Origin: Chitinophaga pinensis
GTDB lineage: Bacteria; Bacteroidota; Bacteroidia; Palsa-965
Direction of reading: 5' to 3'
Length of the DNA stretch: 64,000 nucleotides
Assembly (NCBI GenBank): GCA_943372645.1
Contig: CALRZN010000011.1
Location: 20,200 to 84,199, forward strand
Every line of letters begins with the position of its first letter. Positions within the stretch are counted from its first letter, which is position 1. Below are positions 10,408-23,035 of this stretch, one piece after another. The translations under genes and the position numbers were made by a program. The notes under the pieces were generated by a model. That model was given only the letters and a program-made list of their open reading frames with translations, searched no databases and was not told the origin of the DNA.

Positions 10408-10560
10408 CCCGTTAATGTGCCGAAAATCCGGGAGGAAACCGAATACGCGGCCGGTACGAAAAAGCCAAATACATAAAAGACAGAAATCCCTTTCAGTTGG
10501 GGTTACCCGTTGATGCGCCATGCATGGCGCATCAACGCGAACCAAAAACAAAAAACGAAC
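10408..10560. repeat. Composite repeat element copy A, containing the perfect 28-bp palindrome GTTGATGCGCCATGCATGGCGCATCAAC (10509-10536)
   Basis: Conserved ~110-bp left module (cgttaatg.gccg.aaatccgg...aaccgaatacgcggccggtacgaaaaagccaaatac.taaaagacagaaatccctttcagttggggttaccc) followed by the palindrome and an A/C-rich tail gcgaaccaaaaacaaaaa. Shared with copies B-E. Confidence 0.85.
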
Positions 10561-11214: not shown

Positions 11215-11580
11215 CCATTTCAATTGGAGTTACGCGTTGAACCGCCGGAAATCCGGAAAGAAAACGAAAGCGCGGCCGGTACGAAAAAGCCGAATACGTA
11301 AAGACAGAAATCCCTTTCAGTTGGGGTTACCCGTTGATGCGCCATGCATGGCGGATCAACGCGAACCAAAAACAAAAACGCCCCCAAAACCAGCAATCGC
11401 ATAAAATAATGCGAACCGCTAACCCCAAAAGTAAAAACAGCAGCTGTTGATCCGCCATGCATAGCGGATCAACGCGAACCAAAAACGCCCCCAAAACCAG
11501 CAATCGCATAAAATAATGCGAACCGCTAACCCAAAAGTAAAAACAGCAGCTGTTTCGATATACCCTATCTTTGGGAAATG
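11215..11580. repeat. Composite repeat element copy B: both hairpin modules plus two near-perfect 28-bp palindromes (11333-11360, 11444-11471) and a ~112-bp tandem duplication (about 2 copies)
   Basis: caattggagttacgcgttgaaccgccggaaatccggaaagaaaacgaaagcgcggccggtacgaaaaagccgaatacgtaaagacagaaatccctttcagttggggttacccGTTGATGCGCCATGCATGGCGGATCAAC. The unit gatcaacgcgaacc...aatcgcataaaataatgcgaaccgctaacc..cagcagctgtt recurs at 11353 and 11467. Confidence 0.85.
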
Positions 11581-11639: not shown

Positions 11640-12173
11640 ATGAAATCACTCCGGCTGCTCTCCTTTTTTGTACTCCTGGCCTGTTCCTGTTTTGCCCAGG
11701 AGAAGCTAAAATTTACTGACCGGTTGTATGGCGCCGACATGGCATCTACTTACCACTATATACAAGGACGATTTTCCTGGATGCCTTCGAATTTATTATA
11801 TGGTATTCAATACAAAAGAATCCGCTCCGACAACGAGGCCGGCGTTTTCACATTTGAAACCGGGCAAACGTTCTCCCTGAACTATACAAAACTGAACGGG
11901 CAGGATATGTTGAATACGAACCTGGAAGCACACTTCCGGTCGTTTCCGTTAACCGCGGGAATAATCCGGATCGGGGCGGGTATTGATTACACTACCGATT
12001 TTCAGCAGCGCAATTTCTTGTCCGTATATCCTTCTGCGGGTTTGGATATCGGCGGTATTGAAATCATTTACGCGTATCTCATCAATGGAAAAAAAGCTGC
12101 AGAAATTTCAGATCACCGGATAAGCCTTGCTTTCGGACTATGGGTGAAATCGAAAAAAAACGAGAGCCGTTGA
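11640..12173 (+). CDS. Hypothetical secreted protein (signal peptide; possibly a small beta-barrel/OMP-like)
   Basis: 177 aa; N-terminal MKSLRLLSFFVLLACSCFAQE signal peptide. Alternating hydrophobic pattern and C-terminal aromatic residues. No recognisable catalytic motif. Confidence 0.4.
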   Translation: MKSLRLLSFFVLLACSCFAQEKLKFTDRLYGADMASTYHYIQGRFSWMPSNLLYGIQYKRIRSDNEAGVFTFETGQTFSLNYTKLNGQDMLNTNLEAHFRSFPLTAGIIRIGAGIDYTTDFQQRNFLSVYPSAGLDIGGIEIIYAYLINGKKAAEISDHRISLAFGLWVKSKKNESR

Positions 12174-12266: not shown

Positions 12267-12968
12267 ATGCTGACGATAGACAATTACTTAGACAGCCACT
12301 ACATCCACCGGAGCAATTGGTTGCGGGCAGCCGTGCTGGGCGCCAACGACGGCATCATTTCCATTTCGAGCCTTGCTGTGGGTGTGGCTGCGGCAAGTTC
12401 GGATCGTGAACCGATTATTCTCGCAACCGTTGCCGGACTTGTGGCGGGGGCGTTATCCATGGCTGCCGGGGAATATGTATCGGTAAGTTCACAAACCGAT
12501 ACCGAAACGGCCGACATTGAACGGGAAAAACGGGAGCTTAAAGAAATGCCGGAAGCGGAGCTGAACATTCTGGCCCAGATTTATGAACGTCGCGGACTGA
12601 AAAAAGAAACGGCCATGCAGGTGGCCATTGAACTGACGGAAAAAGATGCCCTCGGCACACACATCAGGGACGAACTGGGCATTAACGAAATAAGCCAGGC
12701 GAAACCCATACAGGCCGCCGTCGCATCGGGCGCATCATTTACCGCCGGGGGCCTGCTGCCCATGCTGGCTGTGCTTTTTGCGCCGATAAAAGGAATGGAA
12801 TACTGGCTTTATGGATTCACCATTATTTTCCTCGTTGTGCTCGGCGCCATAGCCGCACGGGCCGGCGGATCAAGCATCCGGAAAGCAATTCTGCGCATCA
12901 CCATCTGGGGCACCATTGCAATGGGATTATCCGCAGGCGTAGGATATATTTTTGGCGTTAAGGTTTAG
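12267..12968 (+). CDS. VIT1/CCC1-family iron/manganese transporter
   Basis: 233 aa; WLRAAVLGANDGIISISSLAVGVAAA...MAAGEYVSVSSQ is the VIT family N-terminal signature. Central acidic loop, C-terminal TM helices. Confidence 0.8.
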   Translation: MLTIDNYLDSHYIHRSNWLRAAVLGANDGIISISSLAVGVAAASSDREPIILATVAGLVAGALSMAAGEYVSVSSQTDTETADIEREKRELKEMPEAELNILAQIYERRGLKKETAMQVAIELTEKDALGTHIRDELGINEISQAKPIQAAVASGASFTAGGLLPMLAVLFAPIKGMEYWLYGFTIIFLVVLGAIAARAGGSSIRKAILRITIWGTIAMGLSAGVGYIFGVKV

Positions 12969-12974
12969 AAAAAA

Positions 12975-13360
12975 CGAATCGCGGCCGGAACGAAAAAAAC
13001 GAAAAGAAACGCGGAAAATCCCTTTCAGTTGGAGTTACGCGTTAATGCGCCGGAAAATCCGGAAAGAAAACGAAAGCGCGGGCGGTACAAAAAGTAAAAT
13101 AAGTAACGAAAGAAAAACATTCGGGTTTGTATTCCCCGTTGATGCGCCATGCATGGCGCATCAACGCGAACCAAAAACAAAAACGATCTGCTTTCAAAAC
13201 GAAATTGAACCTGGAACAGGGATGAATCCAAAACCGACGCATCAACGCGAACCAAAAACAAAAACGATCTGCTTTCAAAACGAAATTGAACCCGGAACAG
13301 GGATGAACCAAAAACCGGCGCATCAACGGCGAACCAAAAACAAAAACGATCTTCATTTAA
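12975..13360. repeat. Composite repeat element copy C: duplicated left module, perfect 28-bp palindrome (13138-13165), then ~81-bp tandem repeat x ~2.4 (13158-13355)
   Basis: Each tandem unit starts with the right half-palindrome gcatcaacgcgaaccaaaaacaaaaacgatctgctttcaaaacgaaattgaacc.ggaacagggatgaa.ccaaaaccg. Repeats at 13158, 13239, 13319. Confidence 0.85.
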
Positions 13361-13431
13361 CGATATTTAATAACCCCAATACCAGCCGTTTCGTTTTATA
13401 CCCGAAATTTGGCAAAACCAACCCAGCTACT

Positions 13432-13752
13432 ATGCCCACGAAATACAAAGCCACATTTCTTCTGCTCCTTGCTTCTGCCCTCCCCTGTTTTGCAGGCGGA
13501 TTAAAAGGCGGGCCGTTTATCAGCGATACAATGATTTATGTTTTCTTCGGTTATCTTATTTTTGTACACGGGCTCGGCATTGTAACGTTTGTACTGCGTA
13601 AACTCTGGCTCCGCATCGTTTCCGGTATTTTATACCTTCCTGTTTTTCTTGTGGTTGTCGGTCTCTTTTTTATCAACCCGCTGATTGGCGTTGCCGCCCT
13701 GCTTTTTGCAATGGTCTTTTTGATTTTTCTCATCATCTGGCCGCGTAAATGA
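13432..13752 (+). CDS. Small membrane protein (106 aa), paralog 1 of a tandem pair
   Basis: MPTKYKATFLLLLASALPCFAGG... N-terminal signal/anchor plus 2-3 predicted TM helices. Ends ...IWPRK*. The upstream part of listed ORF 12952..13752 is repeat read-through. Confidence 0.5.
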   Translation: MPTKYKATFLLLLASALPCFAGGLKGGPFISDTMIYVFFGYLIFVHGLGIVTFVLRKLWLRIVSGILYLPVFLVVVGLFFINPLIGVAALLFAMVFLIFLIIWPRK

Positions 13753-13799
13753 GTACCCTATACAGGATAAATGGCTTACGCCTTTAGATAAGTAAATCA

Positions 13800-14114
13800 A
13801 TGCCTGGTAAATACACCGCGACACTGCTGCTCCTCTGTTCTGCAATACCCTGTTTTGCAGATGAAGTGGAACCCATCAAGCTTTTCAGCGATACGTTTAT
13901 TAACAGTTTGCTTGCATACATCTATTTTGTGCATGTGCTGGCTATCGTAGCATTTTTTTTACGTTACGAATGGTTGCGTGTAGTTGCAGGTGTACTCTAC
14001 GCACCTGTATTTTTGATTCCAACAGGCCTCTGCTTTGTCAATTTTGCTTTTGCGCTTCTCTTTCTTTTTACCGGGGCATTTTTCACCTTTACCATCATTA
14101 TCAGACGTAAATGA
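13800..14114 (+). CDS. Small membrane protein (104 aa), paralog 2 of a tandem pair
   Basis: MPGKYTATLLLLCSAIPCFADE... same architecture and same C-terminal ...IIRRK* as paralog 1. Stop overlaps the start of the next gene (TAAATGA). Confidence 0.5.
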   Translation: MPGKYTATLLLLCSAIPCFADEVEPIKLFSDTFINSLLAYIYFVHVLAIVAFFLRYEWLRVVAGVLYAPVFLIPTGLCFVNFAFALLFLFTGAFFTFTIIIRRK

Positions 14115-16015
14115 GCACCCGTATCCGCATAGTCCTGCTTGCCCTGCTGCTCTGTAGTTCCATTGCCGGCGTGTGGATCTATTTTTACAAATCGCGCACC
14201 GCACCGGTGAAAACAGATGACCTGGCGTTTGTGCATACACTAAACACCTCCGCCGATTTTCAAAACTTTGCCGGGGCCCCGCTCGACAATGCGTACCCGG
14301 ACATCAGTAGCGTAAAAGCGGTGTACGACCTCGACCGGAAAGAAATCTACTACATAAACTCGAACCTGTACCGGCTGCACTTCGATTTCTGCAGCAAGGT
14401 GCTGGGGTATAAAATGGGACTGCGTTTGTTCAACATTGCCAACTACGGCAGCGAACGCGATTATTATTTAGCCAACATCAATTACCTGCGGAAAAGCAAC
14501 AGCTATGTGCTGGAGTTTGGCATGTACGATGAAATAGACAGCGTACAGATTGCGGAGATGTTCAACAAGGTGCGTGAAAGTCCGCTGTTTATCAACAACC
14601 TGCGCCTGCTGCTGAACAATACGAACAGCATTCAGTATTTCAGCAACGGAAAAACCATTCCCACCTGCAACCCGAATGAACTGAACGACGGCCTTCCCTT
14701 CCAGGCCATCCAGCCCGGCACCTGCACCGGCAGGCTGGTGGTGTGCGACGATCTGAAAACACAGTATCTTACCATTACGCCCGGTGATATTCTTGTACTG
14801 AAAGGTTCACCCACTGATATTCCTTTGTGCAAAGCCATTATCAGCGACTGTTTTCAGACCCCGCTGAGCCACATCCAGGTGCTGAGTCACAATAAAAAAA
14901 TGCCTTCGGCGTATTTGAAGGATGTTTTTACAAACAACAGCATTACACAATACAACGGGCAGTATGTAAAACTGGTGGTTACAGCCGACACGTTGCGCAT
15001 TACACCCGCTTCGCCGGATGCGGTGGAAGAACAGCAGCAGCAAAAGGTCGTTTTAAAATTAAACACAGCAATTCATTCCATTGTGCCGATTGAAAAATGC
15101 AGCAACCTTACCAACGCCGATATCGGAACAAAAGCAAAAGGATTCTCCGACCTGAAACAGATCGCTGATAAAAACTTCAGCCTGTTTCGTGTGCCGGAAG
15201 GTGCGTTTGTGATCCCGTTTTATTTTTACCGGCAGCACCTGCAAAACGCAAACGTTGCCCCGCAGCTGGTCGCACTGGAACAATGTCCTGCACACGAAAC
15301 ACAAAAGATGGATGAACTGCTGAGGCAGATCCGCAAAGCGATTGAAGAAACACCGGTTGATGCCGGGCTGCTGCTGCAGATCAACACGCAGATCCGCAAA
15401 AACAACTGCGGTAACAGTTACCGCTTCCGCAGCAGCAGCAATGCCGAAGACCTCGCCGAATTCAGCGGGGCCGGGCTGTACACCAGCAAAACCGGCGAAC
15501 TGAACGGGAAGAAAAAAACAATTGAACGTGCCATCAAAAAAGTGTGGATCAGCATGTACAACTACCGCGCTTACCAGGAACGCCGCTTCGCACATATTGA
15601 TGAAAACACCGCTGGTATGAGCATACTCGCGCACCGGAATTTCCCGGATGAAGACATCAACGGCGTAATTATTACCAAAAACAACTACCGCGCGAACTAC
15701 CCCGGCCTGGTAATCAATGCGCAGCTGGGCGATGTATCAACCGTAAGTCCGCCCGACAGTGTGCGCTGCGAACAGTTGATACTGACGGAGAACAAACTGA
15801 TGAATCCGTTCAGCAAAAAAGTAAGCGCGAAATACATCTGCTTCAGCAGCCTGCACACCGAAGGGCCGCTGCTGCGGTATGAACAGTTGCTGCAGCTTCA
15901 GCAAAGCACCAAAGCCGTGCAGGAATTTTATGCCGCAAAGAAACTGGACTGGGATATTGAGTTTAAGTTTGAAGGCGGTATTCTGTATTTTAAACAGGTA
16001 AGGCCGTACAGGTAA
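14111..16015 (+). CDS. Membrane-anchored PEP-utilizing-enzyme homolog with permuted domain order (swivel phospho-His-like domain before the PPDK_N-like nucleotide-binding domain)
   Basis: 634 aa; N-terminal TM helix. GDILVLKGSPTDIPLCKAIISDCFQTPLSHIQVLSHNKKMP resembles the PEP-utilizers mobile domain (GeILV..t.P.w.....aaiit..GGrTSHAAIvARE.G.P). About 190 aa further downstream, FRSSSNAEDLAEFSGAGLYTSK...KKVWISMYNYRAYQERR resembles the PPDK_N/PpsA ATP-binding motif (VRSSATAEDLPGASFAGQQET...CYASLFTDRAIKYR, compare ppsA at 31431). Confidence 0.55.
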   Translation: MSTRIRIVLLALLLCSSIAGVWIYFYKSRTAPVKTDDLAFVHTLNTSADFQNFAGAPLDNAYPDISSVKAVYDLDRKEIYYINSNLYRLHFDFCSKVLGYKMGLRLFNIANYGSERDYYLANINYLRKSNSYVLEFGMYDEIDSVQIAEMFNKVRESPLFINNLRLLLNNTNSIQYFSNGKTIPTCNPNELNDGLPFQAIQPGTCTGRLVVCDDLKTQYLTITPGDILVLKGSPTDIPLCKAIISDCFQTPLSHIQVLSHNKKMPSAYLKDVFTNNSITQYNGQYVKLVVTADTLRITPASPDAVEEQQQQKVVLKLNTAIHSIVPIEKCSNLTNADIGTKAKGFSDLKQIADKNFSLFRVPEGAFVIPFYFYRQHLQNANVAPQLVALEQCPAHETQKMDELLRQIRKAIEETPVDAGLLLQINTQIRKNNCGNSYRFRSSSNAEDLAEFSGAGLYTSKTGELNGKKKTIERAIKKVWISMYNYRAYQERRFAHIDENTAGMSILAHRNFPDEDINGVIITKNNYRANYPGLVINAQLGDVSTVSPPDSVRCEQLILTENKLMNPFSKKVSAKYICFSSLHTEGPLLRYEQLLQLQQSTKAVQEFYAAKKLDWDIEFKFEGGILYFKQVRPYR

Positions 16016-16020
16016 GCGAA

Positions 16021-16260
16021 CAAAATCGCCGCCGTTACGAAAAAGCCAAATACGAAAAGAAAGAAATCCGTCCAGGTTTGTATTCCCCGTTGATGCGCCA
16101 TGCATGGCGCATCAACGCGAACCAACAACGCCAGGAAAACGCGAACCAAAAACGAAAAGGAATTTCGAACTAAAAAAAAACCATCAACGCGAACCAAAAG
16201 CGAAAAGGAATTTCGAACTAAAAAAAGCGGATCAACGCGAACCCCAAATCCGGAAGAACC
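16021..16260. repeat. Composite repeat element copy D: left module, perfect 28-bp palindrome (16089-16116), then 48-bp tandem repeat x ~2.5 (16117-16245)
   Basis: Units gcgaaccaaaa.cgaaaaggaatttcgaactaaaaaaa..c..atcaac each end in the right half-palindrome (atcaacgcgaacc at 16111, 16183, 16230). Confidence 0.85.
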
Positions 16261-22907: not shown

Positions 22908-23035
22908 CCGTTGATCCGCCGGAAAACCGGAACGTAAACGAAAGCGCGGCCGGTACGAAAAGCAAAATACGGAAAGAAAGAAATCCGTTTTAGTCGGAGT
23001 TACCTGTTGATGCGCCATGCATGGCGCATCAACAA
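22908..23035. repeat. Composite repeat element copy E with the first hairpin (gttgatccgccggaaaaccgg) and the perfect 28-bp palindrome (23006-23033)
   Basis: cccgttgatccgccggaaaaccggaacgtaaacgaaagcgcggccggtacgaaaagcaaaatacggaaagaaagaaatccgttttagtcggagttacctGTTGATGCGCCATGCATGGCGCATCAAC. Sits immediately downstream of the terminator. Confidence 0.85.

What the first reader, a model, noticed from the sequence alone, without database searches (positions are those of the whole stretch)
13432..16015. Candidate novel three-gene module: two tandem small membrane-protein paralogs translationally coupled to a membrane-anchored, domain-permuted PEP-utilizing (dikinase-like) protein, bracketed by repeat elements
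The 634-aa protein carries a phospho-His swivel-like segment (GDILVLKGSPTD...TPLSHIQVLSHNKKMP) upstream of a PPDK_N/PpsA-type nucleotide-binding motif (FRSSSNAEDLAEFSGAGLYTSK; compare VRSSATAEDLPGASFAGQQET in the ppsA of this window). That order is the reverse of PpsA, PPDK and rifampin phosphotransferase. It also has an N-terminal TM helix and a ~200-aa N-terminal domain of unknown function. It is immediately preceded by two ~105-aa paralogs (signal/anchor plus 2-3 TM helices, both ending ...RRK or ...PRK), with stop/start overlaps TAAATGA and a 48-nt gap. The whole 2.6-kb unit lies between repeat copies C and D. A permuted, membrane-tethered His-phosphotransfer enzyme with dedicated small membrane partners is not a described system to my knowledge. 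It could be a phosphotransferase acting on a membrane or xenobiotic substrate, or a signalling or defence module.
Basis: partly seen in the sequence, partly recalled or inferred. Interest (0 to 1): 0.7.

Follow-up and report, generated by a model that had tools for sequence, protein, structure and literature searches.

The report
Membrane-anchored exported dikinase with small partners
A three-gene operon encodes a membrane-anchored enzyme built like the plant starch-phosphorylating dikinase, plus two small membrane proteins; it belongs to a large, unstudied Bacteroidota family that appears to work outside the cytoplasm, where its ATP-type chemistry is not expected.

Summary
Three co-directional genes lie at 13432-16015: two paralogous ~105-aa membrane proteins (50% identical) and a 634-aa protein whose start overlaps the second small gene by 4 nt. 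The large protein has a TM helix, a 160-aa domain with no detectable relatives, a swivel phospho-His domain (invariant His254) and a C-terminal PPDK_N ATP-grasp domain with every checked motif residue invariant in 75 homologues.

The His-then-ATP-grasp order is not unprecedented: it is the order in plant glucan/phosphoglucan water dikinases, and the His domain scores best against the GWD-type Pfam model. The flanking repeats are a mobile REP-like palindrome found throughout the region, not brackets.

What is unusual:
- The family (>600 clusters at 50% identity, nearly all Bacteroidota) almost always starts with a signal peptide, lipobox or TM anchor, so it looks extracytoplasmic.
- The small proteins occur only beside TM-anchored members, in arrays of 1-7.
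- In the sister clade the operon continues with a VTC polyphosphate-polymerase-like gene and DUF4956. Neither is in this window.

Best reading: an inner-membrane complex of a GWD-type dikinase acting on an unknown envelope substrate. It is a new variant of a known kind, of moderate to high interest.

The parts
13432..13752 (+). smp1: 106-aa small membrane protein with a signal-peptide-like N-terminus (…LPCFA|GG) and three TM helices, a basic loop after TM1 and a basic C-tail (PRK)
   Evidence: ORF. The start at ATG 13432 is supported by 111- and 108-aa homologues and by an independent 106-aa gene call; the NCBI record calls it as 235 aa, starting inside the repeat region. Family profile hits. 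Alignment.
13800..14114 (+). smp2: 104-aa paralogue of smp1 (50% identity) ending RRK; its stop overlaps the next start codon
   Evidence: In relative L081 a repeat element has replaced most of this gene, leaving only about the last 60 nt.
14111..16015 (+). Gene for the 634-aa membrane-anchored dikinase-like protein, GWD-type domain order
14117..14197 (+). N-terminal TM helix (residues 3-29), taken to be an uncleaved signal anchor
   Evidence: The AF2 model has a helix at 3-29. There is a 20-residue uncharged hydrophobic run. Flank charges are +2 on the N side and +3/-2 on the C side.
14216..14698 (+). N-domain (residues 36-196): alpha/beta domain with no detectable relatives, taken to be the acceptor-binding domain; K69, H90, F93 and Y112 are invariant, as is Q198 two residues past its end
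14699..15010 (+). Swivel phospho-histidine domain (residues 197-300) with the motif QTPLSH
14870..14872 (+). Codon of His254, the predicted phosphorylated histidine
   Evidence: Invariant in 75 of 75 homologues. Coordinate checked.
15116..16012 (+). C-terminal ATP-grasp nucleotide-binding domain (PPDK_N, residues 336-634) with invariant GxK341, R438-F-R440-S-S-x-N-x-E-D, D615-x-E617-F-K and K628-Q629-x-R631
13138..13165 (.). Upstream copy of the 28-nt REP-like palindrome GTTGATGCGCCATGCATGGCGCATCAAC (context only, not a functional part), followed by an 81-nt tandem duplication at 13157-13318
16089..16116 (.). Downstream copy of the same palindrome, 74 nt after the stop codon (context; could act as a hairpin at the operon end)

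Best explanation
The three genes form one operon.

The large protein belongs to a big, uncharacterised, almost exclusively Bacteroidota family in the PEP-utilising/dikinase superfamily. Its catalytic core has the same order as plant glucan water dikinase: acceptor domain, then swivel phospho-His domain, then C-terminal ATP-grasp domain.

Proposed mechanism (inferred from the superfamily):
1. The ATP-grasp domain binds a nucleotide triphosphate and transfers phosphate to His254.
2. The swivel domain rotates to the N-terminal domain.
3. The phosphate is passed to an acceptor bound by the N-domain, which has no detectable relatives.

The window's enzyme is held in the inner membrane by an uncleaved N-terminal helix. 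Its catalytic domains most likely face the periplasm, because most homologues carry cleavable signal peptides or lipoprotein signals.

The two small proteins are accessory membrane subunits. Each has a signal-peptide-like start plus three TM helices, and they occur only with TM-anchored members of the family. I infer that they assemble with the enzyme's anchor into an inner-membrane complex.

In the sister clade the same operon continues with a cytoplasmic VTC (polyphosphate-polymerase-like) protein and the membrane protein DUF4956. My best guess is therefore that the acceptor or donor is an envelope polyanion, polyphosphate first and a glycan second.

Shown: gene structure, domains, folds, conservation, synteny. 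Inferred: topology, complex formation, substrate.
For: Domains and active-site conservation:
- His254, K341, R438, R440, E617, Q629 and R631 are invariant in 75 of 75 homologues.
- GWD-type order: PF22973 matches 25 of 75 homologues and PF00391 matches 2 of 75. The GWD1 domain order is given in PMC13553574.

Export:
- 112 of 119 homologues start with a signal peptide, lipobox or TM segment.
- Variants of about 800 aa carry a signal peptide plus CarboxypepD_reg and Por_Secre_tail-like beta-sandwich domains.
- Lipoprotein-type members are nested among TM-anchored ones in the tree.

Linkage of the small proteins:
- Profile hits lie directly upstream on the same strand in the window, L081, L082/L083, L084, L002, L004-L007, L012, L085 and L086, with unrelated flanking genes and 4-nt overlaps.
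- They are absent from signal-peptide and lipoprotein members, including L167 and L168.
- The association with a long hydrophobic anchor is significant by a rough heuristic: Fisher p=3e-6.

VTC and DUF4956:
- Both lie immediately downstream in 7 loci.
- DUF4956 alone is adjacent to or overlaps signal-peptide-type members in 5 Flavobacteriaceae loci.
Against: - No source of ATP is known in the periplasm, so a conventional ATP-dependent dikinase there is biochemically awkward.
- The topology of the anchor was not determined. Both flanks are basic: on average +2.3 on the N side and +3.0 in the 15 residues after the helix, so the positive-inside rule does not decide.
- The window and its closest relatives (L081, L082) have no VTC or DUF4956 gene nearby.
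- None of 80 metagenomic DUF4956 loci carried the dikinase, so the polyphosphate link is a minority association.
- The small proteins have no detectable relatives outside this context and no known domain. smp2 has been lost in L081, so at least one copy is dispensable.
- No experiment on any family member was found.
Confidence: 0.55

Rival explanations
1. A cytoplasm-facing tethered dikinase. In this reading the N-terminal helix of the TM-anchored clades inserts N-out/C-in, so the catalytic domains stay in the cytoplasm, use ordinary ATP, and phosphorylate a substrate at the inner leaflet, beside cytoplasmic VTC.
For: - It removes the ATP problem.
- The segment just after the helix is strongly basic in many TM-anchored homologues, for example HTRKEKKK and YLKKNNHK, averaging +3.0 in 15 residues.
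- VTC has no signal peptide and sits in the same operon in the sister clade.
Against: - The short N-tails are also basic (MSTRIR, MKKLLK), as in ordinary signal anchors.
- Lipoprotein and signal-peptide members are nested inside the TM-anchored clades.
- The DUF4956-linked Flavobacteriaceae members have clear cleavable signal peptides.
- An inversion of topology within one orthologous family would be unusual.
Confidence: 0.2
2. A true functional analogue of glucan water dikinase: a periplasmic or surface enzyme that phosphorylates alpha-glucans or another polysaccharide during glycan foraging or exopolymer synthesis.
For: - It has the GWD-type His domain and domain order.
- Bacteroidota are glycan specialists.
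- TonB-dependent receptor genes lie nearby in L082 and L085.
Against: - No CBM45, CBM20 or other carbohydrate-binding module was detected.
- The N-domain is alpha/beta, unlike the all-helical GWD central domain.
- No conserved SusC/D or glycoside hydrolase neighbours appear across about 80 loci.
- The receptor genes mentioned above are on the opposite strand and are not conserved.
Confidence: 0.1
3. One reading: a categorically new, domain-permuted His-phosphotransfer system with dedicated partners, acting in signalling or phage defence.
For: - The order is reversed relative to PpsA, PPDK and Rph.
- The dedicated small partners are conserved.
- A sensor kinase and LytTR regulator lie downstream in the window.
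Against: - The order is that of GWD/PWD.
- There are no defence-library hits.
- In L081 four other genes separate the operon from the sensor kinase, and in L082 the neighbours are different altogether.
- The family is large, chromosomal and usually stand-alone.
Confidence: 0.07
4. A toxin-immunity module: the enzyme is an exported antibacterial effector and the tandem small polytopic proteins are immunity proteins.
For: The arrays of 1-7 diverged small membrane-protein paralogues (22-37% identity within L005) next to an exported enzyme resemble immunity-gene arrays.
Against: - The small proteins accompany exactly those enzymes that stay anchored in the producer's own membrane. They are absent beside the released signal-peptide and lipoprotein forms.
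- No secretion-system, polymorphic-toxin or mobile-element context was seen.
- One copy is lost in L081 with the enzyme intact.
Confidence: 0.05

Closest known systems
Plant/algal alpha-glucan water dikinase and phosphoglucan water dikinase (GWD1/PWD, EC 2.7.9.4/2.7.9.5)
   Same: The order of the catalytic core is the same: an acceptor-side domain directly N-terminal to the phospho-His domain, with the ATP-binding (PPDK_N) domain at the C-terminus (PMC13553574). The His domain scores best against the GWD-type Pfam model PF22973. Both have an LSH motif around the catalytic His.
   Different: There are no CBM45 or CBM20 starch-binding modules. The acceptor-side domain is a 160-aa alpha/beta fold, not the 20-helix central domain of GWD1. 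The protein is less than half the size, is bacterial, has a signal peptide or membrane anchor, and has small membrane partners. The substrate is unknown.
PEP synthase (PpsA), pyruvate phosphate dikinase (PPDK), rifampin phosphotransferase (Rph)
   Different: The domain order is reversed: in those enzymes the ATP-grasp domain is N-terminal. The third domain is unrelated to the PEP/pyruvate TIM barrel or the rifampin-binding domain. Those enzymes are cytoplasmic and soluble.
Split bacterial dikinases (HpeHI hydroxyphenylethanone kinase; phenylphosphate synthase)
   Different: Those are cytoplasmic multi-subunit enzymes of aromatic catabolism. Here all modules are on one exported or anchored chain.
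CotH-VTC-DUF4956 gene clusters of Firmicutes, Actinobacteria and Bacteroidota
   Same: An extracytoplasmic kinase-type enzyme is encoded next to a VTC polyphosphate-polymerase-like protein and DUF4956 (PMC7112168).
   Different: The kinase there is CotH, an unrelated fold. The window itself has neither VTC nor DUF4956. None of these clusters has been characterised.
Eukaryotic VTC polyphosphate polymerase/translocase with its small TM-only subunit Vtc1
   Same: This is an analogy only. In that complex several copies of a small TM-only subunit assemble with the catalytic subunits into a membrane complex (three Vtc1 protomers, PMC9911596). The small proteins here are about 105 aa, have three TM helices and occur in multiple copies.
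   Different: No sequence similarity was detected between the small proteins and any Pfam family or DUF4956 (hhalign probability 0.3%). Vtc1 has no signal peptide. The resemblance is untested.

Membership tests
PEP-utilising / dikinase superfamily (PpsA, PPDK, Rph, GWD) | ATP-grasp nucleotide-binding domain (PPDK_N) with conserved Lys, Arg-x-Arg-Ser-Ser and Glu/Gln/Arg Mg-nucleotide residues | tested here: met
PEP-utilising / dikinase superfamily (PpsA, PPDK, Rph, GWD) | Mobile phospho-histidine (swivel) domain with a catalytic His in a [TS]-H motif | tested here: met
PEP-utilising / dikinase superfamily (PpsA, PPDK, Rph, GWD) | Dikinase chemistry: autophosphorylation of His by the beta-phosphate of ATP and transfer to an acceptor | not testable with these tools
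   Needs labelling of purified protein with [beta-32P]ATP and an H254A control.
Glucan/phosphoglucan water dikinase (GWD/PWD) | Domain order: His domain followed by a C-terminal ATP-binding domain | tested here: met
   His domain at residues 197-300 and ATP-grasp at 336-634. GWD1 order: PMC13553574.
Glucan/phosphoglucan water dikinase (GWD/PWD) | GWD-type His domain (PF22973) at or above the family threshold | tested here: inconclusive
   E=0.022 and 14.8 bits, below the 27-bit cut-off, in the window protein. 25 of 75 homologues match at E<=0.1, the best at 1e-5.
Glucan/phosphoglucan water dikinase (GWD/PWD) | N-terminal starch-binding modules (CBM45 or CBM20) and the helical central domain | tested here: not met
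PpsA / PPDK / Rph architecture | N-terminal ATP-grasp domain, with the His domain downstream of it | tested here: not met
   All NCBIfam PpsA and Rph models match only residues ~330-632, using model positions ~8-330 and far below their cut-offs. The His domain lies upstream.
Sec-exported / extracytoplasmic proteins | N-terminal signal peptide, lipobox or signal anchor conserved across the family | tested here: met
   Heuristic classification of 119 homologues: 62 signal-peptide-like, 18 with a lipobox, 32 with a long TM-like segment, 7 with none. Exported-type beta-sandwich domains occur in the ~800-aa variants. No dedicated predictor or experiment was available, and the orientation of the window protein's anchor is inferred.
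VTC-DUF4956 (polyphosphate-polymerase-like) gene clusters | VTC (PF09359) and DUF4956 (PF16316) genes adjacent to the kinase gene | tested here: not met
   Neither is present anywhere in the 64-kb window, nor near L081 and L082. Both are present in the sister clade: L002, L004-L007, L085 and L086.
Anti-phage defence systems (PADLOC) | A match of any of the three proteins to a known defence-protein model | tested here: not met
   No hits at E<=0.01.

The most novel reading that the evidence does not exclude
The family would be an extracytoplasmic phosphotransfer system that does not depend on cytoplasmic ATP diffusing out. Polyphosphate would be made by VTC and threaded through DUF4956 into the periplasm. 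There it would serve the exported dikinase as phosphoryl donor, or be its acceptor or be end-capped by it. Running like PPDK in reverse, the enzyme could even regenerate ATP from AMP outside the cytoplasm. The small three-TM proteins would form part of the membrane complex that couples the anchored enzyme to this supply. In genomes such as the window's, the VTC and DUF4956 genes would lie elsewhere, or another donor would be used.
Probability: 0.12. Interest if true: 0.85.

Novelty: new variant of a known kind. Interest (0 to 1): 0.6.

Why it matters
Dikinases of this superfamily are known as cytoplasmic or plastid enzymes that need ATP. This family has more than 600 sequence clusters, an intact nucleotide site and export signals, which poses a concrete question: what supplies phosphoryl groups outside the bacterial cytoplasm?

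The recurrent neighbourhood with VTC and DUF4956 is a possible clue. That pair also accompanies exported CotH kinases, and in this survey it was usually followed by an outer-membrane beta-barrel gene. Together these features suggest an uncharacterised route for exporting and using polyphosphate. Extracellular bacterial polyphosphate of unknown origin has recently been reported (preprint PMC13484657).

The family is also a bacterial group with the GWD-type domain order, which may bear on where the plant starch dikinases came from.

Cultured Flavobacterium, Polaribacter and Tenacibaculum strains carry members, so the questions can be tested directly.

Tried and rejected
- A single-sequence search against PDB found nothing. 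Only the family profile reached PEP synthase and Rph.
- The AFDB Foldseek library was unavailable, so I could not rank plant GWD models against this model. I relied on Pfam PF22973 and the literature instead.
- The small proteins gave no Pfam, NCBIfam or PADLOC hits, only 7 hits in the 5.8-billion-protein search, and no relation to DUF4956 (hhalign probability 0.3%).
- Rfam found nothing in the window. The sigma-70 promoter and terminator scans were at or below chance and are not suited to Bacteroidota.
- The idea that the repeats bracket a mobile unit is rejected. There are six copies in the window, relative L081 has the same gene order with the repeat at other sites, and one copy there has destroyed smp2.
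- The reverse search from DUF4956 in metagenomes found VTC adjacent in 67 of 80 loci but the dikinase in none. This limits how far the polyphosphate link can be pushed.
- Literature searches found no paper on exported PPDK_N proteins and none characterising DUF4956 or bacterial VTC proteins. PMC1223868 is not held.
- The positive-inside rule did not decide the orientation of the anchor.
Full report

Yes. Three co-directional ORFs occupy 13432-16015:
- smp1: 13432-13752, 106 aa, read from the ATG inside a longer ORF.
- smp2: 13800-14114, 104 aa.
- A 634-aa gene: 14111-16015.

An independent gene caller made the same 106/104/634-aa calls on another assembly of the same sequence. The NCBI record starts smp1 further upstream, giving 235 aa that run through the repeat region. 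Homologues of 111 and 108 aa support the short form.

smp1 and smp2 are paralogues, with 50% identity and E=1e-30. The smp2 stop and the large gene's start overlap as ATGA. The smp1-smp2 gap is 47 nt.

**2. What is the large protein?**

- *ATP-grasp domain.* Pfam places PPDK_N at residues 338-632 with E=1e-20. NCBIfam PEP-synthase and rifampin-phosphotransferase models match only that region, using their own N-terminal ~330 positions.
- *Model.* An AlphaFold2 model built on 75 homologues is confident: pLDDT 91.9, pTM 0.87.
- *Catalytic His.* A family profile aligns QTPLSH254 with the TSH of PEP synthase.
- *Conservation.* In 75 homologues of 35-87% identity, the following are invariant: S253, H254, K341, R438, R440, S441, S442, N444, E446, D447, D615, E617, Q629 and R631.

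From what is known of PPDK and Rph, the ATP-grasp residues in this list (K341 to R631) are the nucleotide and Mg-site motifs. The enzyme therefore looks catalytically competent.

The order is helix 3-29, N-domain 36-196, His domain 197-300, linker, ATP-grasp 336-634.

**3. Is the order unprecedented?**

No. [quoted passage not shown]

Scanning the 75 homologues individually, the GWD-type His-domain model PF22973 matches 25, the best at E=1e-5. The classical PEP-utilizers model PF00391 matches 2. The core is therefore GWD-like in order and in its nearest His-domain family.

It is not a GWD, however. No carbohydrate-binding module is detectable. The domain in front of the His domain is a 160-aa alpha/beta fold, whereas the GWD central domain consists of 20 helices.

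A profile of the N-domain was searched against 1.84 billion representative proteins. It found 644 clusters at E<=1e-3 and 353 at E<=1e-10. Among the 150 best hits listed, essentially all are proteins of 620-670 aa with the domain at the same position, or fragments. A subgroup of about 800 aa is described in section 4. I did not see the domain combined with any other catalytic module.

**4. Where does the family live and work?**

More than 585 loci were found in species-representative genomes, and the record titles are overwhelmingly Bacteroidota: Chitinophagales, Flavobacteriales, Bacteroidales and Cytophagales. They include cultured Flavobacterium, Polaribacter and Tenacibaculum strains. Source names are generic, such as "PEP/pyruvate-binding domain-containing protein". 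I found no paper on the family.

The N-termini are the unexpected part. I classified the 119 near-full-length proteins among the 120 best hits with a simple heuristic:

| N-terminal type | Number |
|---|---|
| Short signal-peptide-like segment (many ending …AQ, …GQ or …SQ) | 62 |
| Lipobox cysteine | 18 |
| Long TM-like segment | 32 |
| None (mostly odd starts) | 7 |

The ~800-aa variants insert CarboxypepD_reg-like and Por_Secre_tail-like beta-sandwich domains between the signal peptide and the N-domain. These are typical extracytoplasmic modules.

In a neighbour-joining tree, lipoprotein-type members (P0066, P0054, P0047) are nested among TM-anchored ones. The type of export signal therefore interconverts within clades.

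I conclude that the catalytic domains are most likely extracytoplasmic across the family, with the window protein held at the inner membrane by an uncleaved signal anchor. This is an inference. Both flanks of the helix are basic, so the positive-inside rule does not decide.

**5. The small proteins.**

A profile seeded from smp1 finds relatives only directly upstream of the dikinase gene, on the same strand:

| Locus | Copies of the small protein |
|---|---|
| Window and L084 | 2 |
| L081 (83% identical enzyme) | 1 |
| L082/L083 (64% identical, different neighbours) | 1 |
| L002 | 3 |
| L004 | 2 |
| L005 | 7 |
| L006 | at least 5 |
| L007 | 3 |
| L012 | 1 |
| L085 | 1 |
| L086 | 2 |

The flanking genes differ between these loci, so the linkage is functional rather than inherited context.

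All of these proteins have a signal-peptide-like start that usually ends C-x-A. Three hydrophobic helices follow, with a basic loop after the first (…WKNxxVR…) and a basic C-tail. This fits a topology with the N-terminus outside and the C-terminus inside.

The family is small and has no known domain. Only 7 hits were found among 5.8 billion proteins. It is not related to DUF4956.

The small proteins track the anchor type. Every locus with a long uncharged anchor has one (10 of 10; Fisher p=3e-6 with a rough heuristic). The lipoprotein-type relatives P0066 and P0054, which sit inside the same clade, have none.

In L081 a repeat element has replaced most of smp2. Only its last ~60 nt remain, still overlapping the enzyme's ATG. 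Copy number is therefore flexible and one copy suffices.

Within the L005 array the paralogues are only 22-37% identical.

**6. A lead on function from relatives.**

In the 650-660-aa TM-anchored sister clade, the operon continues immediately downstream with two more genes, often with overlapping stop and start codons. The first is a ~250-aa VTC-domain protein (PF09359, the polyphosphate-polymerase fold of eukaryotic Vtc4). The second is a ~210-aa DUF4956 membrane protein (PF16316). Seven loci with unrelated flanks show this: L002, L004-L007, L085 and L086.

In Flavobacteriaceae, DUF4956 alone overlaps or abuts signal-peptide-type family members. It lies upstream in L053 and L066, and convergent downstream in L056, L059 and L077. 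L053 adds an exported histidine-phosphatase-superfamily gene.

The reverse search tempers this. Among 80 metagenomic DUF4956 loci:
- 67 have VTC directly upstream.
- 43 have a DUF2490 outer-membrane beta-barrel gene downstream.
- 8 have a CotH kinase.
- None has the dikinase.

The VTC-DUF4956 pair is thus a module in its own right. It sometimes recruits an exported kinase, either CotH or this dikinase.

The only paper I found that describes DUF4956 in a gene-cluster context lists it beside CotH and a "poly-phosphate polymerase" next to Gram-positive pel operons; it is not characterised there (PMC7112168).

The window has no VTC or DUF4956 gene in its 64 kb. Neither do the sequenced flanks (about 6 kb each side) of its closest relatives, L081 and L082.

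**7. Most likely mechanism.**

Shown here: a single chain carrying an intact ATP-grasp site, a swivel domain with an invariant histidine, and a family-specific N-terminal domain with invariant K69, H90, F93 and Y112 (invariant Q198 lies just past its end). It is co-transcribed and probably translationally coupled with two small membrane proteins.

Inferred from the superfamily: the nucleotide domain phosphorylates His254. The swivel domain then carries the phosphate to an acceptor held by the N-domain, as proposed for GWD1.

Inferred from distribution: the enzyme sits in the inner membrane facing the periplasm, and the small proteins pack against its anchor to form a complex.

The acceptor is unknown. 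Given the neighbours in relatives, my first guess is polyphosphate or a polyphosphate-dependent reaction, and my second is an envelope glycan.

The main difficulty is that no periplasmic ATP source is known. This is why the cytoplasm-facing rival keeps an appreciable probability, and why a polyphosphate-fed reaction is worth testing.

**8. Context and the repeats.**

The gene order in the window is MnmE, two small ORFs, a VIT1 transporter, then the operon. After the operon come a Reg_prop/Y_Y_Y sensor kinase, a LytTR regulator and an SprB-repeat T9SS protein.

L081 keeps the order VIT1, operon, sensor kinase, but has four extra genes between the operon and the kinase. The kinase is therefore not a dedicated partner.

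The 28-nt palindrome GTTGATGCGCCATGCATGGCGCATCAAC occurs six times in the window, against 0 expected, and three times in L081 at other positions. It is a mobile REP- or MITE-like intergenic element, not a boundary of the module.

**9. Verdict.**

The module is a new variant of a known kind. It is a GWD-type dikinase core with a previously undescribed acceptor domain, export signals and clade-specific small membrane subunits, from a large family that has never been studied.

Interest is moderate to high (0.6). An apparently competent ATP-grasp dikinase outside the cytoplasm is surprising, and the VTC/DUF4956 link makes the question of extracytoplasmic phosphoryl supply testable.

Noticed in passing
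window 10509-10536, 11333-11360, 11446-11473, 13138-13165, 16089-16116, 23006-23033; tandem 81-nt duplication 13157-13318: A REP/MITE-like element consisting of a perfect 28-nt palindrome (GTTGATGCGCCATGCATGGCGCATCAAC) plus an A-rich tail (GCGAACCAAAAAC…). It occurs six times in 13 kb of intergenic DNA, against 0 expected by chance. There is no Rfam match.
   Followed up: partly
L081 5755-6000 (relative with an 83% identical enzyme): A copy of the same palindromic element has replaced most of the second small-protein gene. Only its last ~60 nt remain, still overlapping the dikinase start codon. This shows that the element is mobile and that smp2 is dispensable.
   Followed up: yes
window 12952-13752: The NCBI record annotates smp1 as a 235-aa protein whose N-terminal part is a translation of the repeat region. 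Homologues and another gene caller support a start at 13432 (106 aa).
   Followed up: yes
L087-L166 (metagenome loci around DUF4956): VTC (polyphosphate-polymerase-like) and DUF4956 form a tight gene pair in 67 of 80 loci. A DUF2490 outer-membrane beta-barrel gene follows in 43 of 80, and a CotH kinase is nearby in 8 of 80. The arrangement looks like an uncharacterised system that spans the cell envelope.
   Followed up: partly
L053 5367-8334 (Tenacibaculum): This operon reads DUF4956, signal-peptide-type dikinase, then an exported (lipoprotein-signal) histidine-phosphatase-superfamily protein (His_Phos_1, E=5e-16). The phosphatase could act on the phospho-enzyme or on its product.
   Followed up: no
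P0184, P0226, P0234, P0238, P0251, P0259, P0262 (about 770-813 aa): A subgroup of the dikinase family has an extra N-terminal region: a signal peptide, a CarboxypepD_reg-like domain and a Por_Secre_tail-like beta-sandwich placed internally rather than at the C-terminus.
   Followed up: partly
homologues P0022, P0029, P0036, P0042, P0045 and others: the 15 residues after the TM anchor: The stretch just after the anchor is strikingly Lys/Arg-rich in the VTC/DUF4956-linked clade (for example HTRKEKKK, YLKKNNHK, KDKKGAHKK). It could be a topology signal or a polyanion-binding patch.
   Followed up: partly
window 11640-12173: A 177-aa signal-peptide-bearing protein with no Pfam match and a beta-strand-like alternating pattern, possibly a small outer-membrane protein. 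It lies upstream of the VIT1 gene, and L081 has a 159-aa gene without Pfam hits at the same position; homology between the two was not tested.
   Followed up: no
L010, L037, L070, L080 (record titles): A few loci carrying the family are labelled Bifidobacterium, Vulcanococcus, Henriciella or Fibrobacteres MAGs. These are probably binning or labelling errors, given that the rest are Bacteroidota.
   Followed up: no
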